A DNA stretch of 64,000 bases from a virus (Duplodnaviria; Caudoviricetes). Positions 36,834-50,876 of the stretch are shown piece after piece. Numbering within the stretch: the first letter of the stretch is position 1; the number at the start of each line of letters is the position of its first letter. The stretch lies in the IMG/VR virus record IMGVR_UViG_3300043434_000734, positions 96,001 to 160,000 of that record; one strand, given 5' to 3'. The notes under the pieces were generated by a model that was given only the letters and a program-made list of their open reading frames with translations, had not been told where the DNA came from and searched no databases. The position numbers were made by a program, and so were the translations under genes.

Positions 36834-36860
36834 AGAAATTTAACTATTATAGTATTGTAT

Positions 36861-36923
36861 CAGGAGAGAGGTACATTTATTTTTGTCATATCCCCGTGGG
36901 TTTTTAATCTTCGGGGATTTTTT
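36861..36923 (+). ncRNA. Putative trans-antisense sRNA C
   Basis: 5' 30 nt nearly identical to + strand 46397-46426, so antisense to that mRNA start; ends in atccccg...cggggat-T6 terminator. Confidence 0.65.
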
Positions 36924-37170
36924 ATGAATTAAAAATTTAATTGTACTATATAAAGAACTTCTTGTTATTATTATATTTTTCTTGGTATTCTGATATTTTT
37001 GTTGTATTTTTCTAATAGTTATATAAAAAAAATACAATATGTTAAATTTAATTATAGGTTTATTCGTCTTATGTTCCTCATTTGGAATTACACTTTCTAA
37101 AACACAAACTCATTACGGGTTTCGTAAACAACGTCAACACGTTAAACCTTTAACGTTAGATAAAGATGTG

Positions 37171-38478
37171 TTAAAGCATAACTCTTGATCCGACCAAGAA
37201 GTTACTTAACATTGGGGTATTCGGTTCGGTATTTAAATTCAATTTGTAATTAAAACTGAATCCAAAACGTTTAGTTATTTTATAATCAAAACTACTACCC
37301 AATAAAAACCCAATCTGTCTTCCTACCATAGTACCACCAGTAAAGGTGTTGTAACCTAACGGTGACCACATTGTAAAAACTTGTGGAGATATCGTTAATT
37401 TCTTATTATACTGATACGGTTTTGTCCAAAATACTACTGTGGATGTTGACAAACTAGTTGTGTAGGATTCTTCACCTTTCATTAGTAAGGTAATCAACCC
37501 AACATTATATCCGTAAGTCCCCAATTTAGGGTGAGGTTTAATCCAAGTATAACCTAAGAGACCCATATATGTTCCTTTTAAGTACGCTGAGGTAAATGAA
37601 TAACTATTTAATGAATTCAATTGTCCTTTATTTGTCAATTTCATTACAGTTACTCCCGATGAAATTGCAAATTGGTCAAATGTTGAGAAAGCCATTCCAT
37701 TTAAACTATATGATTTATCACCCATCAAAGATGATTTAGACATTCCTACGGTCATAGCTAAAGAATATGTACCGTCGGCCGATTGTGCGGTTGTTAAATC
37801 CGATGCTATTAACATAGGATTTAAATTTTGTTGTTTTCTTTTCTCTTCTTTTTTCTTTTCTTCCTCTTTTTTCTCTTCTTTCTTAGACTCGGATTTTGAC
37901 TCGTCTTTCTTCTTCTCAGTCTTACTTTCTGATTTTGATTCACTCTTACTTTCTGTTTTTGAATCGGTTTTAGATTCTGACGAAGATGAGGTGTTATTTT
38001 TATTATCCGACGATGAGGGTGGTGTTCCACTATTTGATGATGAGGTTGATGGTTGTGTACTTGTTGTTGCACTTGAACTGACGGCTGACGCAGAATTACT
38101 TGCAGCATTCGATGCTGAATTACTAGCAGCATTGGATGCGGCGGTCGATGCTGCCTGACTTGCCGCAGCAGTTGCAGCCGCTGCAACTTGTTGTGTAATT
38201 GTTTGTTGTACTACGGTATTTGTGGGACATCCCATACTATTATATGCCACATATGTTTGTTGTAACCAAACTTGTAATGAACCACCTTGTACTTGTGCTG
38301 GGGTGAATGTTTTTATTTGATTGTAAAATGAAACTACGGCATTACCATTAACATACGTTGTGGTGGCAATTTTAATCTCACCAGAACATTTATCAACAAA
38401 TGTTTGAGTCATAATTGATTGACCCTTTGTGGTAAAACTAAAAAATAATATTAGGAGAGAGATAATTATTTTTTTCAT
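37171..38478 (-). CDS. Exported protein with Ser/Ala and Lys/Glu linkers and predicted C-terminal beta-barrel
   Basis: Signal peptide; amphipathic beta-strands to the C-terminus (FSFNYKLNLN...NFLVGSRVML). Confidence 0.65.
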   Translation of the reverse strand: MKKIIISLLILFFSFTTKGQSIMTQTFVDKCSGEIKIATTTYVNGNAVVSFYNQIKTFTPAQVQGGSLQVWLQQTYVAYNSMGCPTNTVVQQTITQQVAAAATAAASQAASTAASNAASNSASNAASNSASAVSSSATTSTQPSTSSSNSGTPPSSSDNKNNTSSSSESKTDSKTESKSESKSESKTEKKKDESKSESKKEEKKEEEKKKEEKRKQQNLNPMLIASDLTTAQSADGTYSLAMTVGMSKSSLMGDKSYSLNGMAFSTFDQFAISSGVTVMKLTNKGQLNSLNSYSFTSAYLKGTYMGLLGYTWIKPHPKLGTYGYNVGLITLLMKGEESYTTSLSTSTVVFWTKPYQYNKKLTISPQVFTMWSPLGYNTFTGGTMVGRQIGFLLGSSFDYKITKRFGFSFNYKLNLNTEPNTPMLSNFLVGSRVML

Positions 38479-38488
38479 TATGTTATTT

Positions 38489-39220
38489 CTATTCCATCAA
38501 TTTTAAGTTGTAGTCGTTTATTGTGAATGGACTATATATTGAGTATCTAACATTATTAGATATATTTTTTGTCACTTCGTGAGTGTAATTATATTTTTGA
38601 TGTTCAATTAAAATACATTTTCTAAAATCGGGTAAAAAATCAATAATACCGTTGTTAGTGTATAGCTTTAAGATTGATCCGTCGTCATAACTTCTTTTGT
38701 CGTTTAAAAAAAATAGGATAGTAAATAAACGATTTCCATCTGGATCATTATCCGTATGTTTTCTAATAAACGAACCATTTGGGTAGACGTTAATGTTACC
38801 CATTAAATTTTGTTTAAATTCTTCTTTTACTTTTTTATAAAATAAATCATTTATTATACCTTCATATACCTTTAATAAAATATCATAAATTCCCACATCT
38901 TTTAGGTATTGTATTGGGTGAGTGAGAAAAAAATTAAAATAGTCTTCATCGTAGAATCCAAACTCATCATTTAAATTCTTTAAGAATTGAAAATCGTCAT
39001 ACTTTATTCGATAATTTGAATTGATTTTATTAAATCTTGATAAATCGATTTCTTTTACTTTATTCTGTACATTATCTGACCATTGTAAGAACCCTAATGA
39101 ACTATCTATTTTATTTAAATCAATATTGAAATTATTCACCAACTCACCTAGCCGTGTAAATTCGTCAATATTAAGTAGTTCTTCTAAATTATATATTTTA
39201 TAGTCAAAATTTAAATTCAT
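38489..39220 (-). CDS. 2OG-Fe(II) oxygenase
   Basis: NVYPNGSFIRKHTD, TILFFLN, HEV, RYSI. Confidence 0.85.
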   Translation of the reverse strand: MNLNFDYKIYNLEELLNIDEFTRLGELVNNFNIDLNKIDSSLGFLQWSDNVQNKVKEIDLSRFNKINSNYRIKYDDFQFLKNLNDEFGFYDEDYFNFFLTHPIQYLKDVGIYDILLKVYEGIINDLFYKKVKEEFKQNLMGNINVYPNGSFIRKHTDNDPDGNRLFTILFFLNDKRSYDDGSILKLYTNNGIIDFLPDFRKCILIEHQKYNYTHEVTKNISNNVRYSIYSPFTINDYNLKLME

Positions 39221-39233
39221 AATTATAAATATA

Positions 39234-39257
39234 AAAAAAGGGGTAATTAACCCCTTA
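39234..39257 (-). terminator. Intrinsic terminator
   Basis: aagggg taatta acccctt hairpin with A-tract on +. Confidence 0.7.
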
Positions 39258-39282
39258 ATTTAATATTGTTTTAATTGTACGA

Positions 39283-40002
39283 TTATTTTGTAAAAATCCC
39301 CTTTTTAATCATTCTATCAAGAATGTTGGCACAAGCAATATCAAGTGCTTTCTTTGTTGCAATTGATATTGTTGATTGGTTAAATTTAATTGGGTCAATG
39401 GATGCGTCGGATAATAGAGTTAACTCTCTTTTTGTTGTTGCTTCACCTAAACCCGAGGCACCAAACAAAACACCAGTTTCAGCGTCGGTAAACCTAACTT
39501 GTAAACCAATACGAGTTACCATATTATCTTTAATTCCATCTTTAAGATTAATAGTTTCATCTTCAGAAATTGAATAGTCATAACATTCGATAGTCACAAA
39601 GTATTTTGCTAAATTAATTTTACCACGACCATCTAATTTATTTTCGGAAATACCTGATTGAGATGCTTGAAATTGCTTCACCATACGGTTTTTAATTTCG
39701 GTTTTATCTTCAGTAAACTTAAAACGATTTAAATTCTCTAAATACTCCATTGATATGTTGGCAACACCCAAACCAACACGCTTTTCTTTTAGTTCGGGAT
39801 ACATTTCATAAATTTCATCTGAAATACCACATTTAAGAATTTGAATGGGAATTTGTGGACCTTCGTAATCCATATATTGTGAAATGTCTTTTTTCTTCTC
39901 AAAATCGGCTTTATATTGTTCAGTTTTAGTTGACCCTATTGTTTGTGCGTTTCCTAAAAAACCAATTAGGATTAACGATAATAAAAGAAATATTTTTTTC
40001 AT
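39283..40002 (-). CDS. CsgG/HfaB-like exported protein
   Basis: Signal peptide; GVANISMEYL..LNRFKFTE, GLQVRFTDAETG. Confidence 0.7.
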   Translation of the reverse strand: MKKIFLLLSLILIGFLGNAQTIGSTKTEQYKADFEKKKDISQYMDYEGPQIPIQILKCGISDEIYEMYPELKEKRVGLGVANISMEYLENLNRFKFTEDKTEIKNRMVKQFQASQSGISENKLDGRGKINLAKYFVTIECYDYSISEDETINLKDGIKDNMVTRIGLQVRFTDAETGVLFGASGLGEATTKRELTLLSDASIDPIKFNQSTISIATKKALDIACANILDRMIKKGIFTK

Positions 40003-40005
40003 AAA

Positions 40006-40236
40006 TTATTTTGTTTTTGGTTTTTCATACCAAATATTATTTGGGTTATTTTTAAATGTCCCATCTATTTTCCAAGCAATACGGTTTGAAATGTCTAAAG
40101 CTCTGTTTTCTTGATTTGTGAAGTGTAAATAAATGCCGAATCCCTGAAAGGATAGGGCAAAACCTATCCAAATAACTATTAAAATTAAATATACTTTAAA
40201 GAGTGACTCCCCGACGTTTTTTAATGATATTGTCAT
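40006..40236 (-). CDS. Small membrane protein
   Basis: One long hydrophobic segment. Confidence 0.7.
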   Translation of the reverse strand: MTISLKNVGESLFKVYLILIVIWIGFALSFQGFGIYLHFTNQENRALDISNRIAWKIDGTFKNNPNNIWYEKPKTK

Positions 40237-40262
40237 AATCTATTTTATATATAAATACATCG

Positions 40263-40290
40263 AAAAAAAAAGGAGTCATTTGACTCCTTT
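40263..40290 (-). terminator. Intrinsic terminator
   Basis: aaggagtc attt gactcctt with A-tract on +. Confidence 0.8.
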
Positions 40291-40293
40291 ATA

Positions 40294-40542
40294 TTAACCT
40301 TCAGTTTCTTCTTTCTTTTTATGTGAGAATTTATCCAAAGTATCGGCTCCCATCCCAATACCCGTAATTAACATTACTGCGTTTACCAATTCAGGTGACG
40401 GTGCAAAATCCGAGTGAGAGAACGAATTTAAAACCATTGTTACACATAGGAATAACGCACCTATCATTGCGATTACCGGTTTTACCGATATTGATCCTCT
40501 TTCGTCTTTGAAGAGTTCAATTAACCATTCTTTAAATTTCAT
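40294..40542 (-). CDS. Small 2-TM membrane protein (holin-like topology)
   Basis: Two hydrophobic helices, basic C-terminus. Confidence 0.65.
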   Translation of the reverse strand: MKFKEWLIELFKDERGSISVKPVIAMIGALFLCVTMVLNSFSHSDFAPSPELVNAVMLITGIGMGADTLDKFSHKKKEETEG

Positions 40543-40568
40543 AGTTTTTTATTTTTGTCATTTGTTTA

Positions 40569-41180
40569 TTATCCTTCCATATGTATTTCTGCGTATTCAT
40601 CTTTTACTTTACCACACTTCAAACATTCTTCACTTCCGTCACCATCTAAATCCCCCCAAACGTGTTCACATTGTCTATGAGTAAAGTATTCGTCGATTTT
40701 ACCGTCACCATCAAAGTCCAAACCATCCATTACCCCATCACCATCTTCATCAATTTCAGTACCCTTCTTTTCAATTTTTGTTGTCTCATCAATTTCTATT
40801 GTATTTTCAGTTGTCAATTCTGGTAATACTAAAGGAGATACGGACATCGGTACTATCGGATTGTTTGGTCCGTCATTAGTATTACTTAACGATATGCCAT
40901 CTTCCTCATCCATTTTTTGAACTAACATTTTATCTTTATCCGTATCACTAAACCAATAATCAATAATTTTACCGTAACTACCGATAAAGGCACCCAACAA
41001 TAATAAAAGAAGTTCTTTCCACTCTCCCTCTATTGCTGATTTATTTAAAATCGCACCAAATATCCCCATTATAATTATCATAAAACCACCCAATACGATG
41101 GCCGTGATGAACCATCTACGCTTCATCATACTACTCAATAATTCCTTAAATCCACTTGGTGGTTGTTGTTGTTCACTCAT
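40569..41180 (-). CDS. 2-TM protein with DxDxDG Ca-loops and Cys/His cluster
   Basis: DEDGDGVMD, DFDGDGKID, DLDGDGSEE; CEH...CLKC. Confidence 0.7.
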   Translation of the reverse strand: MSEQQQPPSGFKELLSSMMKRRWFITAIVLGGFMIIIMGIFGAILNKSAIEGEWKELLLLLLGAFIGSYGKIIDYWFSDTDKDKMLVQKMDEEDGISLSNTNDGPNNPIVPMSVSPLVLPELTTENTIEIDETTKIEKKGTEIDEDGDGVMDGLDFDGDGKIDEYFTHRQCEHVWGDLDGDGSEECLKCGKVKDEYAEIHMEG

Positions 41181-41263
41181 CTTTTTTTTTGTTTTTTAAA
41201 AGTATGTCTTATTAAGAACGTTAGTGAACATATAAAGAGCACTAACGTTCGAATTTGATAAAA

Positions 41264-41578
41264 TTACCACTTAGGTGCCTCTTCCTTAAACTCATCACCC
41301 TCCTTTTTCTTAGGTTTTGGTTGAGGTTGTGTCGGCTCTGACGATTTTTCTTTAATTATTATAGTCTTTCCACCTGCAGCTTGTTGTTGAGCTTGTTGAT
41401 TTGAGTTTGTAATATTAATCACCGGCGCAGCCTGTTGTACTGGTGTTTCTTCTTTATCACCACCCGTTAATTGTGTTGTGAACCAACCACCTACACCTAG
41501 TGTAATTGTTGATACTAACCCTAATAGAATGTTCTTTAACGAACCTCCTGTACTTTCTGATTTTTCTTCTTCTGCCAT
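41264..41578 (-). CDS. Single-TM protein with Gln-rich tail
   Basis: ILLGLVSTITLGVGGWF. Confidence 0.75.
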   Translation of the reverse strand: MAEEEKSESTGGSLKNILLGLVSTITLGVGGWFTTQLTGGDKEETPVQQAAPVINITNSNQQAQQQAAGGKTIIIKEKSSEPTQPQPKPKKKEGDEFKEEAPKW

Positions 41579-41597
41579 TGTATTTGTTTTTATATAA

Positions 41598-41978
41598 TTA
41601 TTGTATTTTATTAAAATCTGTTATTCCTAATTGTCTATTGTCGGAATTAAATAATCCAATTCTGTATGCTGATTTTGGGAGGGCATTAGTATATACCTTT
41701 AATACATTATCTCCGGCAACAACATTCATAGTTTCTTTTGAGACTACTCGATTTGCGATATCAAATATTTTAACCGTAACCGAACCAGAGGTTTCCATTT
41801 TAAGGTTCATTGCAACTTCTGAAGTTACAAATGCAGTCTGTAATTTAATACCAACTGAGTTATTAATTTTAAGTTCTTCAGATACTGATTGTGGTATTGG
41901 TACAATATCTTCTTTATAACATCCCGTTAATATTGTCGACACAAGTACCAATAAGAGAATTTTTTTCATTTTTGCCAT
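41598..41978 (-). CDS. Lipoprotein with T9SS C-terminal-domain-like fold
   Basis: LTGC lipobox; VKIFDIANRVV...GDNVLKVYTNALPKSAY. Confidence 0.6.
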   Translation of the reverse strand: MAKMKKILLLVLVSTILTGCYKEDIVPIPQSVSEELKINNSVGIKLQTAFVTSEVAMNLKMETSGSVTVKIFDIANRVVSKETMNVVAGDNVLKVYTNALPKSAYRIGLFNSDNRQLGITDFNKIQ

Positions 41979-41980
41979 TT

Positions 41981-42325
41981 TTAATTTACTATTATTGTTG
42001 TCTTTTTTAATTCTTTCCTATCCACATCTTCGAGTACCAAATATAAATATCCCTTGGGTAGTGAATTAGTGTAAATCTTCTTTACATTTTCACCATTTTG
42101 TCCAATAAATTTTTCTCGACCTATTACCTGATTTGTGTTTTTATCTATTAGTGTTAAATAATGAATAGTATTCGATGTTAAATCAAAGTGTATAGATTGA
42201 CCATTTGAAACACTACTTTCGGTTACACTAAATATATCATCTTTGGCCATAACCTTTGGGTACGGTATTTCAGGTTTAGTACACCCCCAAAGTAAAATAA
42301 CCCATATAAATAATATTCGTTTCAT
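41981..42325 (-). CDS. Lipoprotein, paralog of 41598-41978
   Basis: LWGC lipobox; GENVKKIYTNSLPKGYLYL. Confidence 0.6.
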   Translation of the reverse strand: MKRILFIWVILLWGCTKPEIPYPKVMAKDDIFSVTESSVSNGQSIHFDLTSNTIHYLTLIDKNTNQVIGREKFIGQNGENVKKIYTNSLPKGYLYLVLEDVDRKELKKTTIIVN

Positions 42326-44262
42326 TATTTTAATTTTACTTTTAACTGTGTCCCACCCTTATTTACGGCATCTGTTGTTGATATCGATGTCAACCCCAAA
42401 ATACTACTTAATCCCATTTTCGGTAGAAATGTTATTTTGTATTCCGTTGTCTTATCTAATATAGTTGAACCATCAGTAATCAATGAACCTAACGTTATAT
42501 TATCACCTTTATCGGTCCCAAAATTAGTAGGATTACCTTTTGTTGTGAATTCTATTTTTTGAAATTCTAAAGCCGCATTATCATAGTTTAATTGAAATTG
42601 TGTACCAACTAATTCTTGTTCTAATGGGTCTACCGAAAGTGTTACAATCAACTTATTACCTACATTTTCGCTCATAACTAACACATTTACTTCATTGGTG
42701 GTTGTTTTACTTACCAAACTCATAGTTCTAATCGAATTACTACCAACACTACTTACACTTTGTTGTGCGGAATGTGATAGATTTATATCCCCTAACCAAG
42801 TGCCTGATATATTAAATACATCCGTTGAATTTGTGGTATTGATATCAAATACATAAGTGTTTCCTATGTATTTTGGAAACGTATTCCAATTGGATTTACC
42901 AATTGTATTATAAGTTTGCGTTGGTACTAATTTCACTAAATTAGGAAAGGTAAATGTATCTACTATATTATTAAATCCTGTCAAATGTTGTAATAATCGA
43001 TATGTATCTGATTCATTAAAAATTCCATCTCCGTTTACGTCGGCATTCATATATTGAACGCCATTTGTGAATTCCAGTCCATTTTGATTTCCTAAGATTC
43101 CACCATTTGATAATTCTTTAAATGCCAAATACACGTCCGATACCGTCACAACACTATTATATAATGTAGATAATGAATTTGTTGTCATTATCACTGATTG
43201 TGGTTTGTATTGTTGAATTTGATTAAATGTAAATTCGGCTTTTGTTCCATACCAACCATTTTGTAAACGAAGATATGATTGATATGTGGATGACGTAATT
43301 TTAGTTGAAATATTTGGAACGATTCGGAATATCTTCCAACCGCCAGCATCTTGTACATAAGTTATTGGTCCGTCGTATATATCAAATAATTGAATTGATT
43401 TAACATCTGATGGTGAAATACCCGTACCATCAAACTCTCTCGCATCTATGTATAATCGATGTCCACCAAATGATGTGGAATACACATCTATAATTGCCCA
43501 TTCAACTGAACCTGGAGTTGTTAGTGATTTGTATCCGTTTGGTATTTTGGTAGTATCTAATGAGTTCGTAACATCCACCACACCAGTTGAACTTAATGTA
43601 GTTCCACTTACTGATAATTTTGTTTTATCTAAATTACTACCAAAATCAAAATTGATTTTTGCTTGTTTGGTTGGAACACTTGCCACATTGGTTACTTCAT
43701 TTGTCCAATATGAATATACTTGTGGTGCGGAAGGTTTTGACCAATGTAAGTAAAATGCTTCTCCACCACCATATTCCTGAAATCTTGCAACCACCGAATA
43801 TCTTCTTCCGGCAATTAAATTTATCTGACCATATTGATACCCACTTGCCCCGTGTCCACCATAATATGATGTTACCACAACCCCATCAATTAATAAATCA
43901 GAAGCATCGTCTGAATTCACACCAAAGGTATATGTTCCGGTTTCTTGTGGTATAAAAAAGAATTCAAATTTATACCCAAAGTAATCACTAGCCCAACGAG
44001 GTACATTAAATGAACCGGTTGCAATATTTTGTAAAGTGGTTTCTCCTGTTCTGAATATTGTTGTGTTTGAATTTGTTGTGTTAAACATCGTAACAAAATC
44101 GGATGAAGTATTGGCAAATGCACTATATTGATTTGTTACACCGTTTCCATTGTGGGTTTTGTAAGAAGTATAATTAACATATCCCCAACCCGATTGAGCT
44201 AAGGATATGTTATATGTTAATACCAATAATAAAAGTACAAGTAATTTTTTCATACTACTCAA
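42325..44262 (-). CDS. Exported PA14 + dockerin-like + cohesin-like protein
   Basis: PA14: TGTYTFGVNSDDASDLLIDG; ADVNGDGIFNESD; GTQFQLNYDNAAL. Confidence 0.75.
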   Translation of the reverse strand: MSSMKKLLVLLLLVLTYNISLAQSGWGYVNYTSYKTHNGNGVTNQYSAFANTSSDFVTMFNTTNSNTTIFRTGETTLQNIATGSFNVPRWASDYFGYKFEFFFIPQETGTYTFGVNSDDASDLLIDGVVVTSYYGGHGASGYQYGQINLIAGRRYSVVARFQEYGGGEAFYLHWSKPSAPQVYSYWTNEVTNVASVPTKQAKINFDFGSNLDKTKLSVSGTTLSSTGVVDVTNSLDTTKIPNGYKSLTTPGSVEWAIIDVYSTSFGGHRLYIDAREFDGTGISPSDVKSIQLFDIYDGPITYVQDAGGWKIFRIVPNISTKITSSTYQSYLRLQNGWYGTKAEFTFNQIQQYKPQSVIMTTNSLSTLYNSVVTVSDVYLAFKELSNGGILGNQNGLEFTNGVQYMNADVNGDGIFNESDTYRLLQHLTGFNNIVDTFTFPNLVKLVPTQTYNTIGKSNWNTFPKYIGNTYVFDINTTNSTDVFNISGTWLGDINLSHSAQQSVSSVGSNSIRTMSLVSKTTTNEVNVLVMSENVGNKLIVTLSVDPLEQELVGTQFQLNYDNAALEFQKIEFTTKGNPTNFGTDKGDNITLGSLITDGSTILDKTTEYKITFLPKMGLSSILGLTSISTTDAVNKGGTQLKVKLK

Positions 44263-45904
44263 TTATTAAATCGACTTTATTTCCTTTTGAGTCGACAGCA
44301 TCGGATAATACAAAATAGAATAATCCGGCGGTATTTGTTAAAGATGTTTTTGGTGTAAATATTAATTTGTAAGGTGTACCAACTTTAATTCTTGATGTTT
44401 TTAATTGGTCAATGGAACCAAATGTCAATCTACCATTTTCGTGTGTTGAGAAGTTAGTGATTGTCGAACCCGAATCAAATATTACATTATCCAAAGTTAA
44501 TTTAGATTCGTCGTAATTCATTACAACTTGTAAACCCGCTAATTCCGATTTGGTTAATGTTGTTGTTAAAATAACTTTTCCATTTTCTAAGGTAGAAGTG
44601 ATACCCAATGTTACCTTCTCGAGTGATGTTGTTTTATAAGACATTGGTGAAGTGCTCATAGTTTTTAATGAATTGGTGTTTTTATTACTCACCGAATTAG
44701 TATATTGTCCGTCACTTATTTTAGTTGCAATTACTGACGGGTCGGATGAATGTGACCAATTTAAATCCCCACCCCAAGCAAAAACGGCATATACTTCTTT
44801 AATTGGAGAATCAATTATTACCTTATTTTTAACCATACCATCTAACCAACTTTGATTTAATAAACCACTATACCATCTGACCGATGTTGAGGTACTTGTT
44901 GGAATCATAGCCAATGTTGACATATCTTGACCCATTACGTGAGCAAATAAAGTATATGAATCACTTTCACCAAATGAATTACCATTTAGTGTAACCTTAC
45001 CTATCTTTTTTTCTAACTCAGGTAAAGTAAAGTAATTTCCGGTTCCACTAATATCAGTTTGTGAATGACCTAAAAATGCTTTATATGCGTCCGATACCGT
45101 CACAATATTATTCATCCAACTTTTCTGAAATGCTGCACCAACGAATACACCAACTGAATCACCCACTTTAACTTGTGTGGTAAAAAGTACTTCACCACTG
45201 GCATCTAATGGTAATTGTGCAATAGGTTGTTGTGACCAATCAATATCACCACTACCATCCGATTTTAATTTCATCAGTTGAACATTATGGTCTGTGATGT
45301 TATATCCCTGTGGATATAACACTTTTACTTTAAATTGAGAAGTGTTACCTGTCACACTATTCAAAGATGACCACCCACCACCATAAATAGTTCCCACATT
45401 TGAACCATCGATATCGGTACCTGTAGCTAAATCTATTTTGAAAATATTATTGTATGTATTTTGATCTTTTAGAATATATTTCTGAGTTGCAATCAAACCA
45501 CTAATCGAAGCATCCGCTCTTTGAACTGTTAATTGACCAACATTCCAATCTGCATTAACCACATAATTCCAAGGCGTTAAACCATATTGAACATCTAAAT
45601 CATTATCACTTGCACCACCATTGAAATTAAATTTGTAATTGTTCCAACCTGTATAAAAAGTTTGAGCGGAGGAACCTTGATTAAATGTCGTTGAAATATA
45701 TGACAGTGCTTTGTTATTGTACTGATATCTAAACCAAAGATAACGAGGATTTTTAATCACTTGTCCTTTTGATAATGTATATTTGACAGTAATCGTGTCA
45801 CCAACCTTTAATCCGGTTGTGGGTGTTAGTGATTGACTAATTGTTAATTGACCAAATGATGTTAGACTTATTAATAGTAAACATAAGGAGAGAAGTTTTT
45901 TCAT
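44255..45904 (-). CDS. Exported cohesin-like/dockerin-like protein, paralog of 42325-44262
   Basis: VGDTITV..RYQYNNKAL; shared VTVSDAY.AF, W.GD.N.SHS, GLQVVMNYD. Confidence 0.7.
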   Translation of the reverse strand: MKKLLSLCLLLISLTSFGQLTISQSLTPTTGLKVGDTITVKYTLSKGQVIKNPRYLWFRYQYNNKALSYISTTFNQGSSAQTFYTGWNNYKFNFNGGASDNDLDVQYGLTPWNYVVNADWNVGQLTVQRADASISGLIATQKYILKDQNTYNNIFKIDLATGTDIDGSNVGTIYGGGWSSLNSVTGNTSQFKVKVLYPQGYNITDHNVQLMKLKSDGSGDIDWSQQPIAQLPLDASGEVLFTTQVKVGDSVGVFVGAAFQKSWMNNIVTVSDAYKAFLGHSQTDISGTGNYFTLPELEKKIGKVTLNGNSFGESDSYTLFAHVMGQDMSTLAMIPTSTSTSVRWYSGLLNQSWLDGMVKNKVIIDSPIKEVYAVFAWGGDLNWSHSSDPSVIATKISDGQYTNSVSNKNTNSLKTMSTSPMSYKTTSLEKVTLGITSTLENGKVILTTTLTKSELAGLQVVMNYDESKLTLDNVIFDSGSTITNFSTHENGRLTFGSIDQLKTSRIKVGTPYKLIFTPKTSLTNTAGLFYFVLSDAVDSKGNKVDLIIE

Positions 45905-45906
45905 TT

Positions 45907-46425
45907 TTACTTTTTGTTAAAAAATGTTTTATTAATTAACGATTCACACGTTTTTTTTATGGCAGACGATAACGCTTGTTGATTAACTTTATCACTACCC
46001 TCATCAGTAATTAACGTTGAGGTGGATATTTCCGAACTGGATTCTTCTGAGGTCGACTCTTTAAGTTTCTTACCTGTGTTATCGGTAAGAATCCCTTTCA
46101 TAATAACCAAAGTTTCCTCAACGTCTGAATGAAATACTGACACATTACGTTTTGTTCTATTAACGTCAAAGTATAAAATAACAGCACCAAATATTAAATC
46201 GGCCTGACTTTTGTCCTCCACGATGAAAAACTCCTTGTCTTGTAAAATTTCTTGAAAAATGTTTTTAACACCAAAAGCGAAGTTTCGGTTACCGGTAAAT
46301 TTACCAATTTTGATTTTGTTCTCAACCTCACCAATATATACTTTTCTCGTTTCCTGAGCATATGAAGAGAGTGCTAGGAATGAAAGTAATAAAAGGAGGA
46401 GAGAGGTTCCCTTTATTTTTGTCAT
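45907..46425 (-). CDS. Exported CsgG-like protein, distant paralog of 39283-40002
   Basis: Signal peptide; C-terminal NQQALSSAIKK aligns with NQSTISIATKK; ATG 3 nt after TATTTATT. Confidence 0.55.
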   Translation of the reverse strand: MTKIKGTSLLLLLLSFLALSSYAQETRKVYIGEVENKIKIGKFTGNRNFAFGVKNIFQEILQDKEFFIVEDKSQADLIFGAVILYFDVNRTKRNVSVFHSDVEETLVIMKGILTDNTGKKLKESTSEESSSEISTSTLITDEGSDKVNQQALSSAIKKTCESLINKTFFNKK

Positions 46426-46535: not shown

Positions 46536-47318
46536 ATGAGTAATTTTAAACATCTTACCGAATTGGAAATCCAACAAATGACATTTGATTGGAGATATAG
46601 AGGTTTCACAGTTTTGGAACTTTTAACCGAAGAAGAATGTGATGAAATAAATGATGAATTGGAAGGATTACGTCAAGCACGTATCGGTACGACTACCGAA
46701 GACGGTAAAGCTTGGGGTGAGTGGGACCCATTCGCATATCCACACAAACTATCTGATAAATTAGCAAAATTATACGTTCACCCTAAACTTATTGAGGCTT
46801 GTGAGTTTTTGATGGAAGGTGAAATCGTAGGTATGCAAAGTTGGGCATATTTTAAACCACCTGGACAATTGGGTAGAGATCAACACCAAAACGCATTTTA
46901 TACTGGATGTAAACATAATGAAATTATCAATACCGCGTTAGCTTTAGATAATCACGACGAGGGTAATGGTGCGGTTTGGAACTATGAGGGTTCACACAGA
47001 TTACCGACATTACCTATTGAGGTGGATGAAGAAAGAACGAAAACGAATCCATCGTTTTGGAGAAATGAAAGAGGTAAACCTTGTATTATGCCCGAAGGAC
47101 ACGATTTCCGTAAAGTGGAAGGTATTTTGAAAAAAGGACAAGTCGTTTTACTTCACTCACACTGTGTACACGGTTCCGAAGCTAACAATTCAAATAGAAT
47201 GAGAAGAAACTATTTGGGTGGATTTTTAAAGAAAGGGGCTTATTACAATCAAGGAAGTCATATGAAACGTGAACCAATTGACGTTTATGAATTAAGAGAT
47301 AAACATTGGGGGAAATAA
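46536..47318 (+). CDS. PhyH-family 2OG-Fe(II) dioxygenase
   Basis: YFKPPG..HQNAFY, GSHRLP, HCVHGSEANNSNRMRR. Confidence 0.85.
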   Translation: MSNFKHLTELEIQQMTFDWRYRGFTVLELLTEEECDEINDELEGLRQARIGTTTEDGKAWGEWDPFAYPHKLSDKLAKLYVHPKLIEACEFLMEGEIVGMQSWAYFKPPGQLGRDQHQNAFYTGCKHNEIINTALALDNHDEGNGAVWNYEGSHRLPTLPIEVDEERTKTNPSFWRNERGKPCIMPEGHDFRKVEGILKKGQVVLLHSHCVHGSEANNSNRMRRNYLGGFLKKGAYYNQGSHMKREPIDVYELRDKHWGK

Positions 47319-47321
47319 ACT

Positions 47322-47708
47322 ATGAAAAAACCAAATGTCATAAACGTTCACGAATGTCCTGAATGTAAAGTACCCAAAGGATGGGGTGAAGAAATTATTA
47401 TTTGCAATCACGAATTATATTGTGGTAAATTAATGTGTTTCAAAAAGGGTGCAATGTTTTCAATGCACTACCATATGATTAAAGATGAGACTTGGTACGT
47501 AAACGAGGGTGAATTTTTATATCGATGGATTGATACTGAGACAGCAGTGGTAAACGAACAACATTTAAAAGTAGGTGATGTTGTGAGACAACTACCAGGA
47601 CAACCTCATCAATTAGAGGCATTAACTGACGGTGTGGTTTTTGAAGTTTCCACGGAACACTTTGATTCTGACTCATATAGAGTTTGGAAAGGAGATTCAC
47701 AAAAATAA
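47322..47708 (+). CDS. Cupin-domain protein
   Basis: KGWGEE, SMHYHMIKDETWYV, PGQPHQLEA, EVST.HFDSDSYR. Confidence 0.85.
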   Translation: MKKPNVINVHECPECKVPKGWGEEIIICNHELYCGKLMCFKKGAMFSMHYHMIKDETWYVNEGEFLYRWIDTETAVVNEQHLKVGDVVRQLPGQPHQLEALTDGVVFEVSTEHFDSDSYRVWKGDSQK

Positions 47709-48026: not shown

Positions 48027-48099
48027 TGGAATGTAGCTCAATGGTGAGAGCATCCGCCTGATACGCGGAAGGTTATAAGTTCGAGTCTTATCATTCCAA
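48027..48099 (+). tRNA. tRNA-Ile(GAT)
   Basis: tccgc-ctgatac-gcgga; full cloverleaf. Confidence 0.95.
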
Positions 48100-48104
48100 C
48101 ATTG

Positions 48105-48177
48105 GGAACTTTGGTATAGCCGGTGCGTACGTTGGACTGAAAATCCGAAGGAACAAGTTCGATTCTTGTAGGTTCCA
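48105..48177 (+). tRNA. tRNA-Phe(GAA)
   Basis: ttgga-ctgaaaa-tccga. Confidence 0.9.
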
Positions 48178-48240
48178 CAAATAAAGTAAAATTTGAACGA
48201 TAAAGTTAATCACTTTATTAAACAGAAATAACTTTATTAT

Positions 48241-48314
48241 GACCTCTTAGCTCAGTTGGTTAGAGCACCTCACTTTTAATGAGGGAGTCCCGCGTTCGAG
48301 TCGCGGAGGGGTCA
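48241..48314 (+). tRNA. tRNA-Lys(TTT)
   Basis: cctca-cttttaa-tgagg. Confidence 0.95.
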
Positions 48315-48319
48315 CACAC

Positions 48320-48392
48320 ACGGGTATGGTGAAAATGGTTATCATTTTAGTCTCCAAAACTAAAGTTCCTGATTCGAGTTCAGGTATCCGTG
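48320..48392 (+). tRNA. tRNA-Trp(CCA)
   Basis: ttagt-ctccaaa-actaa. Confidence 0.92.
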
Positions 48393-48453
48393 CAAATGTT
48401 CGATTTTTTTAGTCCGTTTCGAACTTTCGTGATATTTATAAATAAAGAACATT

Positions 48454-48993
48454 ATGAAAGAAGAAATATTAAAATTAAGAAATGAAGGTAAAACATTTAA
48501 CCAAATAAAAGAAATAATAAAATGTTCTAAATCTACAATTTCATATTATTGTAGTGAAGGGCAAAAAGAAAAAACAAAAATTAGAACTAAAAAGAGGAGA
48601 GAAAACATTATAATTGATAAATTAGAAAGATTTAAATATAGAAAATCTAAATCGAATAAAGAACGAATTAGAAAATTCAATAAAAGAGATAATCAAATGG
48701 ATGGATTAGTTAACAAAAAAATAGAAATTACATTCACATTTGAAGATGTTATCAAGAAGTTTGGTTATAGTACTGTTTGTTATCTTTCCGGAGAAAAAAT
48801 AAATTTAAATGAAAACACATACCATTTTGACCATATTTTACCATCAAGTAGAGGTGGTGATAACACATTAGAAAATTTAGGTGTTACACACGAAATTGTA
48901 AATAAAATGAAAGGGGACTTAACACCAAAGGAACTTATTCTTTGGTGTGAAAAAATTTTGAAATATAATGGATATGATGTAAATAAAATTTAA
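48454..48993 (+). mobile_element. HNH homing endonuclease with N-terminal HTH
   Basis: CYLSG...HFDHILPSSRGG.NTLENL...VNKMK. Confidence 0.88.
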
Positions 48994-49039
48994 TATTATG
49001 AAAAAAGAATTCGATATGCATTAGTTAAACTAATCGCAT

Positions 49040-49243
49040 ATGACAAACAAAGAGTACAGAGTAAAGAGAATGAAACAATCACACGATTATTGTTTCATAT
49101 GTCAGAAGAGAAATGGAAGTTGGTATTATGATTGCTCCCCAACTTTTGTTCACGGAAGACACGGTAATGGGAAACCGATTGAATCTCATAAAAGAAGAGA
49201 GTATAGAAGTTGGAAGTACAACAGAAAAACTCAATGGAAGTAA
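49040..49243 (+). CDS. Small basic hypothetical protein
   Basis: 67 aa with CxxC. Confidence 0.55.
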   Translation: MTNKEYRVKRMKQSHDYCFICQKRNGSWYYDCSPTFVHGRHGNGKPIESHKRREYRSWKYNRKTQWK

Positions 49244-49272
49244 TGTTTACTATTAACAGTAAACAGTAAACG

Positions 49273-49344
49273 GGTCTCTTGGTGTAACGGATAGCACGAA
49301 ACACTACGGATGTTTTAGTAAGGGTTCAAATCCTTTAGAGACCT
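49273..49344 (+). tRNA. tRNA-Arg(ACG)
   Basis: aaaca-ctacgga-tgttt. Confidence 0.92.
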
Positions 49345-49405
49345 CAATGTTCACAAATTTTTAATGTTCACGTTCCGTGAACAAACAAAAAAAGTGAACA
49401 AAAAA

Positions 49406-49476
49406 GTCAGGTTGGCCGAGCGGCTAGGTGAAGGTCTGCAAAACCTTTAAGATAGGTTCGACTCCTATACTTGACT
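49406..49476 (+). tRNA. tRNA-Cys(GCA)
   Basis: aaggt-ctgcaaa-acctt; U73. Confidence 0.93.
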
Positions 49477-49481
49477 CTTAT

Positions 49482-49553
49482 GGTGTTTGAAGCTTTAAGG
49501 TGAAGCACGAGTTTGTGGAGCTCGGGAAGACGGTTCGATACCGTTCATACACC
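49482..49553 (+). tRNA. tRNA-His(GTG)
   Basis: cgagt-ttgtgga-gctcg; G-1:C73. Confidence 0.92.
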
Positions 49554-49558
49554 CATAT

Positions 49559-49629
49559 TGCGGGGAGGAAGGTTCCCGACCAGTCTCATAAGCTGTGTCT
49601 CCCGAGTTCGATTCTCGGCCCCGCAACCA
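49559..49629 (+). tRNA. Atypical tRNA-Met(CAT): initiator-like acceptor, short D-arm
   Basis: tgcgggg/ccccgca-acca; ctcataa loop. Confidence 0.7.
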
Positions 49630-49680
49630 AAAAGTTTTAAAAATAATTTGAAATAATTTCGGATATTCGTATTTATTTCT

Positions 49681-49688
49681 TACATTTG
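49681..49688 (+). promoter_or_regulatory. Bacteroidota-type -7 element TACATTTG
   Basis: Same tacatttgtaaaacaataa context as 56016. Confidence 0.75.
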
Positions 49689-49709
49689 TAAAACAATAAT
49701 GACAGAAAA

Positions 49710-49838
49710 ATGGCGAAAGCACCGAGAACATCGAAAAGAGTTGGTAAAGTGGCAAGTAAAGCATTAAGAAGTAAAAAAAGTAGCAAGACAACAAAAACTC
49801 TTGCGGGAAGTTCTTTGAGACAACGGAGAAAAAAGTAA
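49710..49838 (+). CDS. 42-aa highly basic peptide (MAKAPRTSKRVGKVASKALRS...)
   Basis: Below the ORF-track cutoff; promoter and A-rich start upstream. Confidence 0.65.
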   Translation: MAKAPRTSKRVGKVASKALRSKKSSKTTKTLAGSSLRQRRKK

Positions 49839-49843
49839 AATAA

Positions 49844-49915
49844 GCCTCTTAAGCATTGCAGGCGATGCGCCAGATTTGTAATCTGGATAACTCGGTTCGA
49901 TTCCGGGCGGAGGCT
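49844..49915 (+). tRNA. tRNA-Thr(TGT)
   Basis: ccaga-tttgtaa-tctgg. Confidence 0.9.
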
Positions 49916-49916
49916 C

Positions 49917-50375
49917 AACAAGTGACGACTGTGGTGTAACCCCACGGTATATAAATCCCAAAGAACTGTCTTGATTCGCGATATCAGAGCAGTGAGGGTA
50001 GAGTTTACTATAAGCGGGGAGTAATTAACCCAATGCGAAAATGTAACCACCAAGTGTAGAGATATATTTGGTTATGATGTACAGAAGGGTACAAAAAACT
50101 TGTTAATTTATTAATTTAGATTCTGATAACTTATAACTAAAGTTTTACTTAAACAAAGGTTATGGAGCAATTTGAGAAATGTTGTTATCACTAAGAATGT
50201 AAATTAATAAAGTTTGATTACGTTAGGTATGTAGTTTAAAAAGAACAATGTCCTAATAGATGAAGGTGTGAGTAATCACCTTACTTAACGTAATTTAAAT
50301 TTAAAACTAACTCAACGAGGACTTTGTTAACCAGAGCAAGACTTGGATGGTGCAACTTAAGGTGAGTTAGAATTT
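49917..50375 (+). ncRNA. Putative ~460-nt structured RNA of unknown class
   Basis: No + strand ORF; helices 50217-27/50284-94, 50263-68/50277-82, 50307-14/50363-70. Confidence 0.5.
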
Positions 50376-50376
50376 T

Positions 50377-50448
50377 GGTCCTGTAGTTAATCGGCTATAA
50401 TATTGCCCTGTCACGGCAAAGTGCCGGGTTCGATTCCCGGTGGGACCG
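50377..50448 (+). tRNA. tRNA-Asp(GTC)
   Basis: ttgcc-ctgtcac-ggcaa. Confidence 0.93.
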
Positions 50449-50672
50449 CAATGAGTAAGAGATACTCAATAGTCTTTAATCCAAGACTCATTTAACAATG
50501 GATGGTGGTTTGTAGTATCAACCTTAACGACTGCATATTGGGAACAAGGATTGTGGACCTACTCTCCCCCAAGTATTAGGTTGACGTTTTAACAGAGGGA
50601 TGCCTCGCAGGTTTTTGAGACAGACAAAAAACCGAAGTAACTACTCATCAGGAATCTCAAGGTGGGGAAAAT

Positions 50673-50760: not shown

Positions 50761-50876
50761 CTGTAGAGTTTGCCCGTGGTAACGGTCTGATAAGATACTT
50801 TCAGACTTCTCGCGTCAAAACCCAAAACACTGACCTACTGGTGCTTGGGCTAAATGTAGAAAAAAAACGGGATATT

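What the first reader, a model, noticed from the sequence alone, without database searches (positions are those of the whole stretch)
37171..46425. Eleven-gene cell-envelope operon: two CsgG-like, two cohesin/dockerin-like, two CTD-like lipoproteins, membrane proteins and a beta-barrel
In transcription order: CsgG-like; cohesin/dockerin-like; PA14-dockerin-cohesin; two lipoproteins; four TM proteins; CsgG-like; (2OG oxygenase insert); linker plus barrel protein. Every member has a signal peptide, lipobox or TM segment, so the products go to the host envelope rather than the virion. Known: CsgG forms the curli outer-membrane pore, and csgG-like genes occur in some marine phages. No curlin repeats are seen here, and the cargo candidates are modular Ca-dependent adhesin-type proteins. 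Inference: a phage-built secretion or adhesion complex for aggregation, glycan capture, receptor masking or exclusion of competitors.
Basis: partly seen in the sequence, partly recalled or inferred. Interest (0 to 1): 0.85.

Follow-up and report, generated by a model that had tools for sequence, protein, structure and literature searches.

The report
Phage gene row remodelling host envelope
A freshwater jumbo phage, probably of Flavobacterium-like bacteria, carries a widely conserved row of twelve genes, eleven of which send proteins into the host cell envelope, most likely to display sugar-binding proteins on the dying cell, though its purpose is untested.

Summary
The gene row is real: twelve co-directional minus-strand ORFs (46425 to 37171). 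Eleven carry a signal peptide, lipobox or TM segment.

- **Transcription units.** It is not one operon. Terminator hairpins that are conserved in position follow g8 and g10, and each is followed by the motif TATTTATA. That motif also precedes the portal and terminase genes.
- **g10** is a genuine remote CsgG/HfaB homologue (Z 13.4 to CsgG; hhalign 94.8%). It lacks the lipid anchor, and no CsgA/B/E/F partners are present.
- **g1** is only weakly CsgG-like.
- **g12** is an N-terminal two-Cys domain, a disordered tether and a 12-strand outer-membrane barrel.
- **g2/g3** share a dockerin-like and cohesin tail. The g3 head is PA14 here, and C-type lectin or LCCL in relatives.
- **g4/g5** are lipoproteins with sub-threshold similarity to the T9SS sorting domain.
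- **g8** looks like a holin.
- **g11** (2OG oxygenase) is a sporadic insert.

The row recurs in the same order in the 80 jumbo-phage contigs examined (502 in IMG/VR encode g10). Its core (g1, g6, g10, g12 plus lectin/cohesin proteins) also occurs in the cultured Flavobacterium phage immuto.

Best reading (about 0.45): a late-expressed module that displays lectins on the host envelope. The main rival is lysis or egress.

Phage CsgG clusters and phage outer-membrane proteins are already published. This scan has also noted the same module in at least 21 other genomes. I class it as a new variant of a known kind.

The parts
45907..46425 (-). g1, 172 aa. Signal peptide plus a small conserved domain of about 140 aa. 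Weakly CsgG/LptE-like. Homologue of immuto gp019.
   Evidence: hhalign of the g1 family against the g10 family gives 74% over 27 columns. hhalign to immuto gp019 gives 95% over 132 columns. Fused to a g9-like TM anchor in L008, L050, L061 and L083.
44255..45904 (-). g2, 549 aa. Signal peptide, unassigned N-terminal part, degenerate dockerin-like loop and a C-terminal cohesin-like domain.
   Evidence: Pfam Cohesin at E 0.0045, sub-threshold. Paralogue of g3 over 300 aa, E 6e-21. 16 of 29 family members hit Cohesin. Atlas neighbours are viral cohesin/dockerin/CTD clusters.
42325..44262 (-). g3, 645 aa. Signal peptide, PA14 lectin-type head, one canonical dockerin-type Ca loop and a C-terminal cohesin-like domain.
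   Evidence: PA14 at 30.7 bits against a cut-off of 24; Dockerin_1 at 16.2 bits, sub-threshold. In relatives the head is replaced by Lectin_C (11 of 29) or LCCL.
41981..42325 (-). g4, 114 aa lipoprotein with a beta-sandwich that resembles a T9SS sorting domain.
   Evidence: Lipobox L-W-G-C. Paralogue of g5, E 1e-9. Family hits to Por_Secre_tail and DUF3244 are all sub-threshold.
41598..41978 (-). g5, 126 aa lipoprotein, paralogue of g4.
   Evidence: Lipobox L-T-G-C. DUF3244 at E 0.0024..
41264..41578 (-). g6, 104 aa, one TM segment and a conserved C-terminal tail ending in W. Homologue of immuto gp016.
   Evidence: hhalign to gp016 gives 99.2%.
40569..41180 (-). g7, 203 aa. One clear TM and probably a second, then an acidic domain with DxDGDG loops and a C...CxxC motif.
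   Evidence: Conserved at 50-90% identity in 76 loci.
40294..40542 (-). g8, 82 aa. Two TM segments and a charged C-terminal tail, as in class II holins. 85-96% identical across relatives.
   Evidence: Its counterpart lies beside a GH19 endolysin in L083 and L061.
40269..40290 (-). Terminator-like hairpin plus T run, directly after g8.
   Evidence: A hairpin of different sequence sits at the same place in L019.
40250..40257 (-). TATTTATA motif, 14 nt upstream of the g9 start.
   Evidence: The motif is enriched (24 found against 12.9 expected) and also sits just upstream of the portal and terminase starts.
40006..40236 (-). g9, 76 aa, one TM. Equivalent to the N-terminal anchor that is fused to g1 in other lineages.
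39283..40002 (-). g10, 239 aa. Signal peptide (SPI type, no lipobox). CsgG/HfaB-family protein.
   Evidence: AF2 pLDDT 82. Foldseek to CsgG, E 1.6e-8. VIA Z 13.4, rmsd 3.4 A over 184 residues. 16 of 36 homologues hit Pfam CsgG. hhalign to E. coli CsgG gives 94.8% over 224 columns.
39238..39256 (-). Terminator-like hairpin plus T run, directly after g10.
39224..39231 (-). TATTTATA motif, 4 nt upstream of the g11 start.
38489..39220 (-). g11, 243 aa cytoplasmic 2OG-Fe(II) oxygenase. A sporadic insert, not part of the envelope set.
   Evidence: Pfam 2OG-FeII_Oxy_3 at 34.6 bits. Present in only 7 of the relatives' loci.
37171..38478 (-). g12, 435 aa. Signal peptide, N-terminal domain with two conserved Cys, a variable A/S/P/K/E-rich tether and a C-terminal 12-strand outer-membrane beta-barrel. 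Homologue of immuto gp018.
   Evidence: Alignments. AF2 model with 12 strands at 222-434, pLDDT 70-88. Foldseek matches to autotransporter beta-domains, FapF, NanC/KdgM and PcoB. hhalign to gp018 gives 97.3%.

Best explanation
This is a conserved host-envelope module of a freshwater jumbo phage whose host is probably a Flavobacterium-like member of the Bacteroidota. It is written as three transcripts (g1-g8, g9-g10, g11-g12), probably expressed late.

Shown:
- Eleven products carry export or membrane signals.
- g10 is a CsgG/HfaB-family protein without a lipid anchor.
- g12 ends in a 12-strand outer-membrane barrel.
- g2 and g3 share a dockerin-like and cohesin tail, under glycan-binding heads that are swapped between relatives.
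- g4 and g5 are lipoproteins.
- g1, g6, g10 and g12, together with lectin and cohesin proteins, are conserved as a set out to the distant cultured phage immuto.

Inferred:
- After Sec export, g10 (as an oligomeric ring or pore) and g12 insert at the outer membrane. g1 and the inner-membrane proteins g6, g7 and g9 act as accessory or anchoring parts.
- g2 and g3 are taken to the cell surface. In lineages with a sorting domain the host T9SS does this. Here it would happen through the sorting-domain-like lipoproteins g4/g5 or the phage's own outer-membrane proteins.
- Once outside, cohesin-dockerin pairing links g2 and g3 into a lectin scaffold that binds glycans.
- The likely benefit is keeping host cells, debris or particles together around a lysing cell, or altering what can bind that cell.
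For: - Export signals on eleven products.
- The window is a phage: major head, portal and TerL genes, plus 24 tRNAs and a tmRNA. The row sits among non-structural genes.
- g10 is CsgG family.
- g12 ends in a barrel.
- g2/g3 architecture and head swapping.
- A true T9SS sorting-domain tail sits on the g2-like protein of L064. L064 and L066 lack g4/g5. Immuto gp015 is annotated as a cohesin-domain protein, and its last residues read like a sorting-domain end; that reading is mine and was not scanned against Pfam.
- g4/g5 keep the lipobox and give recurrent sub-threshold sorting-domain hits.
- Synteny holds in the 80 contigs inspected. The immuto core is gp016=g6, gp017=g10, gp018=g12 and gp019=g1.
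- The g9-g1 fusion in other lineages links those two proteins.
- The TATTTATA motif is shared with the portal and terminase genes.
- Host evidence: the only hit in the phage collection is a Flavobacterium phage, and T9SS is a Bacteroidota system (established knowledge).
- Freshwater metagenomes hold the stretch.
Against: - No protein-protein contact, localisation or expression has been shown.
- g10 lacks the lipobox Cys and the N-F of the CsgG constriction loop. It may be a periplasmic ring, or no channel at all.
- Dockerin evidence is one loop, below Pfam's cut-off.
- The sorting-domain likeness of g4/g5 never reaches Pfam's cut-off and may reflect only a generic Ig-like sandwich.
- The two conserved Cys in the g12 N-domain fit a periplasmic location better than passage through a 12-strand barrel.
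- A holin-like gene, and in two lineages an endolysin, sit inside the row.
- 'Late' rests on a sequence motif only. The motif lies so close to start codons that it may not be a promoter.
Confidence: 0.45

Rival explanations
1. Lysis or egress cassette. g8 would be the holin. g6 and g7 would be antiholin or spanin-like inner-membrane parts, and g4/g5 outer-membrane lipoprotein partners. g10 and g12 would weaken or perforate the outer membrane at the end of infection. The lectin proteins would be a separate cargo that happens to sit in the same row.
For: - g8 is 82 aa with two TM segments and a charged C-tail, and is 85-96% conserved.
- In L061 and L083 a GH19 endolysin (phrog_181, 2.9e-71) lies between the g8-like gene and g6.
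- In the near-complete relative G001 the endolysin is about 40 kb away, with no small TM gene beside it. The holin must therefore be elsewhere.
- The motif shared with late-type genes.
- A lysis-timing role for phage CsgG has been proposed for Melnitz (PMC9004378).
Against: - No holin or spanin family matched: g8 gives PHROG E 0.01 to 'membrane protein' only.
- g4/g5 are folded beta-sandwich lipoproteins of about 115 aa, unlike the short o-spanins known to me.
- The immuto core has no counterpart of g7 or g8 in the seven genes compared (gp013-gp019), yet keeps g10 and g12.
- Large lectin/cohesin proteins with swapped heads are not explained.
- The endolysin is outside the row here and in close relatives.
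Confidence: 0.2
2. Superinfection exclusion or receptor masking. The exported lectins and outer-membrane proteins would bind or cover host surface glycans or receptors, so that other phages cannot adsorb to the infected cell. They might also stop progeny being lost on debris.
For: - Glycan-binding heads vary between close relatives while the tail is constant, a pattern typical of arms-race interfaces.
- Phage outer-membrane proteins that block receptors are known: lambda Lom, as discussed in bioRxiv 10.64898/2026.10.24.761521.
- All products are envelope-targeted.
Against: - By my own knowledge, exclusion genes are usually expressed early or from prophages. Here the motif is shared with head genes.
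- This idea does not need a CsgG-like protein, a tethered barrel and four inner-membrane proteins.
- There are no data on adsorption.
Confidence: 0.15
3. Nutrient or glycan capture. The module would add uptake capacity (lectins plus outer-membrane channels) to feed phage replication.
For: One lineage (L061/L062) carries a TonB-dependent-receptor-like protein (Plug 1.8e-7, OMP_b-brl_3 3e-20) and a 400-aa lipoprotein in the same row. PA14 and C-type lectin heads bind sugars.
Against: The receptor-like genes occur in one lineage only. No glycoside hydrolases or inner-membrane transporters are present. A 12-strand barrel with a plug-like helix is a poor general porin. Late-type expression leaves little time for feeding.
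Confidence: 0.05

Closest known systems
Curli-like CsgG/CsgF clusters of pelagimyophages (HTVC008M group) and Methylophilales phage Melnitz (PMC7029224, PMC9004378)
   Same: A phage-encoded CsgG-family protein sits in a small conserved cluster of exported proteins, without recognisable curlin subunits. It lies in a non-structural region, and its function is unknown.
   Different: Those CsgG genes are recognisable by ordinary annotation and come with CsgF, and the hosts are Proteobacteria. Here g10 is missed by Pfam, has no lipobox and no CsgF/CsgE. It is paired with a 12-strand barrel and cohesin/dockerin lectins, and the host is probably a member of the Bacteroidota.
E. coli CsgG, the type VIII secretion channel (PDB 4UV2, 4UV3, 6L7A)
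   Same: Same fold over about 190 residues (Z 12-13.4, rmsd 3.2-3.6 A). Colinear over the full length in hhalign. The Y-P of the constriction loop aligns.
   Different: About 10% identity. No lipid anchor. The N-F of the loop is not conserved. The first hairpin is 5 residues shorter. No CsgA/B/E/F. Oligomer state unknown.
12-strand outer-membrane barrels with an N-terminal extension: type Va autotransporter beta-domains (NalP, EspP, BrkA) and the amyloid exporter FapF
   Same: The order is signal peptide, N-terminal part, linker, helix, then a C-terminal 12-strand barrel. Foldseek E is about 2e-6 to 8e-6, with TM by target of 0.46-0.59.
   Different: No sequence-family match. The N-terminal part is only about 65 residues with two conserved Cys, on a long low-complexity tether of variable length. 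Whether it ends up outside (autotransporter-like) or in the periplasm (FapF-like) is open.
Cohesin-dockerin assemblies (cellulosome-type and non-cellulosomal)
   Same: A cohesin domain is recognisable in the family. There is a dockerin-type Ca loop (DxNxDGxIxxxD) in g3. The heads are modular and swappable.
   Different: Both modules sit in one polypeptide. Only one clear loop is present instead of the duplicated dockerin repeat. The heads are lectins, not enzymes. The context is a phage.
Beta-barrel outer-membrane proteins of huge phages (bioRxiv 10.64898/2026.10.24.761521)
   Same: Huge phages, many from freshwater, encode signal-peptide-bearing barrels next to other envelope genes. Transcripts were seen in nature for some.
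   Different: Searching that text for CsgG, curli, cohesin, T9SS and PA14 found none of them. This particular gene set is not described there.

Membership tests
CsgG/HfaB family (PF03783) | Alpha/beta core fold with a C-terminal helix | tested here: met
   VIA Z 13.4, rmsd 3.4 A over 184 aligned residues to 4UV2, about 3 Z units above the next group. Foldseek E 1.6e-8.
CsgG/HfaB family (PF03783) | Sequence homology to the family | tested here: met
   There is no direct Pfam hit. However, 16 of 36 phmmer homologues hit PF03783, up to 1.9e-17. The family profile aligns to E. coli CsgG at 94.8%, E 4.8e-8, over 224 columns.
CsgG/HfaB family (PF03783) | Lipoprotein signal (lipobox Cys) | tested here: not met
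   The g10 signal peptide ends ...GNAQ with no Cys. The phage relatives inspected (8 loci and immuto gp017) are likewise without a lipobox, while the bacterial homologues printed have one.
CsgG/HfaB family (PF03783) | Two transmembrane beta-hairpins per subunit that build the 36-strand barrel | tested here: inconclusive
   The model has one long hairpin (strands 134-152 and 156-173). It then has a third long strand followed by a low-confidence stretch where the second hairpin should be. Both regions align to CsgG, but the first is 5 residues shorter and is charged.
CsgG/HfaB family (PF03783) | Constriction loop Y-x-x-x-N-F | tested here: not met
   In the hhalign alignment Y68-P69 align with the CsgG Y-P. 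The N-F positions fall on a gap and a Lys.
Type VIII (curli) secretion system | Partners CsgE and CsgF, and substrates CsgA and CsgB | tested here: not met
   hhalign of every family in the row against E. coli CsgA, B, C, E and F gives probabilities of 1% or less. No curlin-type repeats were seen.
Type VIII (curli) secretion system | Nonameric ring | not tested
   No oligomer prediction was run.
Type Va autotransporter / FapF-like 12-strand barrel (g12) | C-terminal 12-strand outer-membrane beta-barrel | tested here: met
   Twelve long antiparallel strands at 222-434, pLDDT 70-88. Matches NalP, BrkA, EspP, FapF, NanC, KdgM and PcoB. AFDB autotransporter barrels match over query residues 220-435.
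Type Va autotransporter / FapF-like 12-strand barrel (g12) | Sequence membership (Pfam Autotransporter or a related family) | tested here: not met
   No such hit in Pfam or NCBIfam at E up to 0.1.
Type Va autotransporter / FapF-like 12-strand barrel (g12) | Helix in or plugging the pore, and location of the N-terminal part | not testable with these tools
   A helix at 203-215 is predicted, but with pLDDT under 50. Topology needs experiment.
Cohesin (PF00963) | Cohesin domain at the C-terminus of g2/g3 | tested here: inconclusive
   g2 scores 17.6 bits against a cut-off of 24.1, and g3 has no hit. Sixteen of 29 diverse family members hit Cohesin, the best at 34 bits.
Dockerin (PF00404) | Duplicated Ca-binding F-hand repeat | tested here: inconclusive
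   g3 scores 16.2 bits against a cut-off of 22.9. It has one canonical loop (DVNGDGIFNESD). The g2 loop is degenerate.
T9SS C-terminal sorting domain (PF18962) | Sorting-domain beta-sandwich in g4/g5 | tested here: inconclusive
   Sixteen of 30 family members hit, the best at E 4.3e-4, and none reaches the cut-off. Twelve of 30 hit DUF3244.
T9SS C-terminal sorting domain (PF18962) | Placed at the C-terminus of the cargo protein | tested here: not met
   g4 and g5 are free-standing lipoproteins. g2 and g3 end in the cohesin-like domain. A fused tail is seen only in relatives such as the L064 636-aa protein (25.5 bits against a cut-off of 27).
PA14 (PF07691) | Domain hit above the curated cut-off | tested here: met
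   g3 residues 91-176, 30.7 bits against a cut-off of 24.
Class II holin (g8) | Small protein with two TM segments and a charged C-terminal tail, next to an endolysin | tested here: inconclusive
   Size, topology and tail fit. Endolysin adjacency is found only in the L061 and L083 lineages. No holin family matched.

The most novel reading that the evidence does not exclude
The phage carries a self-contained outer-membrane export and display route. An anchor-less CsgG homologue, a tethered 12-strand barrel and the small proteins g1 and g6 would form a trans-envelope machine. The T9SS sorting domain would have been split off as lipoprotein adaptors (g4/g5) that hand Sec-exported lectin-cohesin proteins to that machine. 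That would be a secretion pathway not described in bacteria or phages.
Probability: 0.12. Interest if true: 0.85.

Novelty: new variant of a known kind. Interest (0 to 1): 0.6.

Why it matters
Flavobacteria are major degraders of algal and particulate polysaccharide in lakes and seas. If abundant jumbo phages make infected cells display swappable lectins, infection would change how cells stick to particles, to each other and to phages. That would affect aggregation and carbon flow.

The g10 family is very abundant in metagenomes: 6,341 clusters at 90% identity. With g8 it is more conserved than the phage's ClpB-like chaperone, which implies a strongly constrained but unknown role.

The module also offers a natural case of a CsgG-family protein without a lipid anchor, paired with a small barrel. 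A cultured pair exists for experiments: phage immuto and Flavobacterium sp. LMO8.

Tried and rejected
- **Complex prediction.** g12 (22-435) with g10 (21-239) gave no verdict: score 0.01 against a mark of 0.32, and the controls were not run. This is not evidence either way.
- **RNA evidence.** No RNA holder was listed for the row or for g10.
- **Near-identity DNA search.** Searching the phage collection with the whole row found nothing. tblastn with g2 found nothing.
- **PDB sequence search.** g1 and g10 found nothing.
- **PHROGs.** It gave nothing useful for any member.
- **Whole genome.** None is held for the window.
- **Species-genome scan with g10.** It found only two short MAG contigs (labelled Thiobacillus and Micavibrio). 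I take these to be mis-binned phage fragments, so they give no host information.
- **Related-loci search with the broad g10 alignment.** It failed for lack of a conserved stretch.
- **g1 as a CsgG relative.** There is no match to E. coli CsgG.
- **Endolysin.** None lies within the 64-kb window.
- **Sigma-70-type promoter scan.** It found no more sites than in shuffled sequence. The Bacteroidota -7 motif TAnnTTTG is not enriched.
- **Virion-component reading.** I consider this unlikely, because Sec and lipoprotein signals do not fit cytoplasmic virion assembly. No proteomics exists to test it.

Full report
**What the window is.** The window is part of a large phage. It encodes a major head protein (17240-18982), a portal (22509-24320) and a large terminase (24375-26150). 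It also carries 24 tRNA genes and a tmRNA, at about 31% G+C. Close relatives in IMG/VR are contigs of 200-335 kb. Two of them are rated 97% and 100% complete by CheckV. Freshwater metagenomes hold the stretch (some of these may be the source sample). The row lies between a ClpB-like ATPase, an RNA ligase and a cREC domain gene on one side, and a PhyH dioxygenase, a cupin and the tRNA array on the other. It is therefore outside the structural module.

**The observation.** Twelve minus-strand ORFs run from 46425 to 37171. I call them g1 to g12 in transcription order. A hydrophobicity and lipobox check, together with the sequences, gives these signals:
- SPI-type signal peptides on g1, g2, g3, g10 and g12;
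- lipoboxes on g4 and g5, with the Cys invariant in 30 homologues;
- one TM segment in g6 and in g9;
- probably two TM segments in g7 and in g8;
- no signal in g11.

The row is not one operon. Strong terminator-like hairpins with T runs lie directly after g8 (40290-40269) and after g10 (39256-39238). In relative L019, hairpins of different sequence occupy the same two positions, so these are conserved features. Each hairpin is followed by TATTTATA, 14 nt upstream of g9 and 4 nt upstream of g11. This motif is enriched in the window: 24 matches against 12.9 +/- 3.4 in shuffles, with no shuffle reaching 24. It also sits a few bases upstream of the portal gene, the terminase gene and other genes of that block. 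I infer co-regulation with late-type genes. I did not show that the motif is a promoter.

**g10.**
- Pfam, NCBIfam and a PDB sequence search find nothing directly.
- An exhaustive phmmer search found 220 representatives.
- Sixteen of 36 full-length homologues hit Pfam CsgG (best 1.9e-17), and seven hit LpoB.
- The family profile aligns to E. coli CsgG over 224 columns at 94.8% probability.
- The AF2 model (pLDDT 82) matches CsgG best. Foldseek gives E 1.6e-8. VIA gives Z 13.4 with rmsd 3.4 A over 184 residues. The next group (Cj1090c, PelC, LptE) scores Z 8.9-10.5.
- The top Swiss-Prot model is a Neisseria putative lipoprotein, followed by CsgG.

So g10 is a remote CsgG/HfaB-family member. It differs in three ways. 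It has no lipobox Cys. The N-F of the constriction loop is not conserved, although the Y-P is. The first hairpin is shorter and charged. Whether it forms a pore is open. Some bacterial homologues are lipoproteins fused to caspase-like domains, and one is fused to a protein kinase domain (the domain assignments are my reading of the sequences).

**g1.** BLASTP against g10 is not significant. The profile comparison matches 27 columns at 74%. Nothing matches E. coli CsgG. Language-model neighbours point to DUF4410, YajG and LptE-type families. In four lineages g1 is fused to an N-terminal TM anchor homologous to g9. This suggests that g9 and g1 work together here.

**g12.** It has four parts:
- a signal peptide;
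- an N-terminal domain of about 65 residues with two nearly invariant Cys;
- a tether rich in A, S, P, K and E, which varies in length between relatives;
- a conserved C-terminal 215 residues.

AF2 models the C-terminal part as 12 long antiparallel strands (pLDDT 70-88). Foldseek matches 12-strand barrels: autotransporter beta-domains, FapF, NanC/KdgM and PcoB. No sequence family matches. The architecture fits either a mini-autotransporter or a FapF-like channel. The two conserved Cys favour a periplasmic N-domain, which is an inference.

**g2 to g5.** g2 and g3 are paralogues over their last 300 residues (E 6e-21). g3 has a PA14 domain above the curated cut-off and one canonical dockerin-type loop. 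Among 29 diverse members of the family, 16 hit Cohesin (best 3.9e-8), 11 Lectin_C, 2 PA14 and 1 LCCL. The picture is a constant dockerin-like and cohesin stem under interchangeable glycan-binding heads.

In L064 the g2-like protein ends in a typical T9SS sorting-domain tail (25.5 bits, cut-off 27). L064 and L066 lack g4/g5. One viral Atlas cluster of such proteins carries Por_Secre_tail in 72% of its members. g4 and g5 are paralogous lipoproteins. Their family gives recurrent but sub-threshold hits to Por_Secre_tail (16 of 30) and DUF3244 (12 of 30). The idea that the sorting domain exists here as separate lipoproteins is therefore a lead, not a result.

**g6 to g9 and g11.** g6 has one TM segment and a conserved C-terminal tail ending in Trp. 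g7 has an acidic domain with DxDGDG loops and a C...CxxC motif. g8 has the size, topology and charged tail of a class II holin. In the L061 and L083 lineages a GH19 endolysin (phrog_181, 2.9e-71) lies between the g8-like gene and g6. In the close relative G001 the endolysin is about 40 kb away with no small TM gene beside it, and none lies in this window. g11 is a cytoplasmic 2OG-Fe(II) oxygenase present in only 7 loci, so it is an insert.

**Conservation.** tblastn on the 80 best IMG/VR loci shows g1-g8, g10 and g12 in the same order in nearly every locus with enough flank. Median identities are 89% for g10 and 90% for g8, against 84% for the ClpB-like protein and 50-70% for the rest. The loci were chosen by similarity to g10, which inflates the g10 value but not the g8 value.

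In Flavobacterium phage immuto the neighbours are as follows:

| immuto gene | Reading | Evidence |
|---|---|---|
| gp013 | C-type lectin | deposited annotation |
| gp014 | dockerin-like region | hhalign to g3, 75% |
| gp015 | cohesin-domain protein; its tail reads like a sorting domain | deposited annotation; the tail is my reading, not scanned |
| gp016 | = g6 | hhalign 99.2% |
| gp017 | = g10 | 55% identity |
| gp018 | = g12 | hhalign 97.3% |
| gp019 | = g1 | hhalign 95% |

The conserved core is thus g1, g6, g10 and g12 plus lectin and cohesin proteins.

**Mechanism.** I commit to a late-expressed host-envelope module that places an outer-membrane assembly (g10 and g12, with g1, g6, g7 and g9 as accessories) and a lectin/cohesin scaffold (g2 and g3, with g4 and g5) on the infected cell. 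My confidence is about 0.45. Targeting signals, folds, modularity and co-conservation are shown. Assembly, the route across the outer membrane, pairing and purpose are inferred. The rivals are lysis or egress (0.2), superinfection exclusion (0.15) and nutrient capture (0.05).

**Comparison with what is known.** Phage CsgG/CsgF clusters without curlins are published for pelagimyophages and Melnitz, with 'sibling capture' and lysis timing as speculations (PMC7029224, PMC9004378). [quoted passage not shown] Searching its text for CsgG, curli, cohesin, T9SS and PA14 found none of them. No family in the row resembles CsgA, B, C, E or F.

This scan has already noted the same kind of module in at least 21 other genomes, with similar follow-up readings. 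Those are AI notes, not independent evidence. I class the finding as a new variant of a known kind.

Noticed in passing
window 20261-20268, 21023-21030, 24325-24332, 26154-26161, 29647-29654, 61612-61619 (all minus strand): TATTTATA is enriched in the window (24 found, 12.9 expected). It sits 4-30 nt upstream of the starts of the portal gene, the terminase gene and other genes of the head block. It resembles the T4 late promoter TATAAATA. It may be too close to the start codons to be a -10 element.
   Followed up: partly
window 48027-54657 and 59436-59837: An array of 24 tRNA genes interspersed with small ORFs and an HNH endonuclease gene, plus a phage-encoded tmRNA.
   Followed up: no
L061:4729-5331, L061:6469-8721, L061:8718-9920: In one lineage the same row also holds a GH19 endolysin, a TonB-dependent-receptor-like protein (Plug plus OMP_b-brl_3) and a 400-aa lipoprotein. 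The locus appears to be a hotspot for envelope genes.
   Followed up: partly
L050:6131-7024, L050:10746-11585, L020:1067-1885, L008:11688-12515: Relatives carry extra secreted proteins of 270-300 aa inside the row. One (L050:6131-7024) has a C-terminal part similar to the g12 barrel (37% over 62 aa), so it may be a free-standing barrel paralogue. The others were not compared.
   Followed up: partly
proteins P0220, P0235, P0237, P0257: Bacterial homologues of g10 are fused to other domains: three lipoproteins to what read as C-terminal caspase-like domains, and one protein to an N-terminal Ser/Thr kinase-like domain. The domain assignments are from reading the sequences, not from a scan.
   Followed up: no
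window 39283-40002 and 40294-40542: g10 and g8 are more conserved across relatives (about 90%) than the ClpB-like AAA+ protein (about 84%). Each is the last gene before a conserved terminator. The cause of this constraint is unexplained.
   Followed up: partly
window 36840-37037 (minus strand) and 36861-36923: A 65-aa ORF lies just downstream of g12. Another first-reader note proposes an antisense sRNA here that matches the g1 start region. Neither was examined.
   Followed up: no
window 46536-47708: A PhyH-type dioxygenase and a cupin are transcribed divergently from g1. With g11 that makes several oxygenase-type genes around the row. The PhyH gene is present in only 6 of the relatives' loci.
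   Followed up: no
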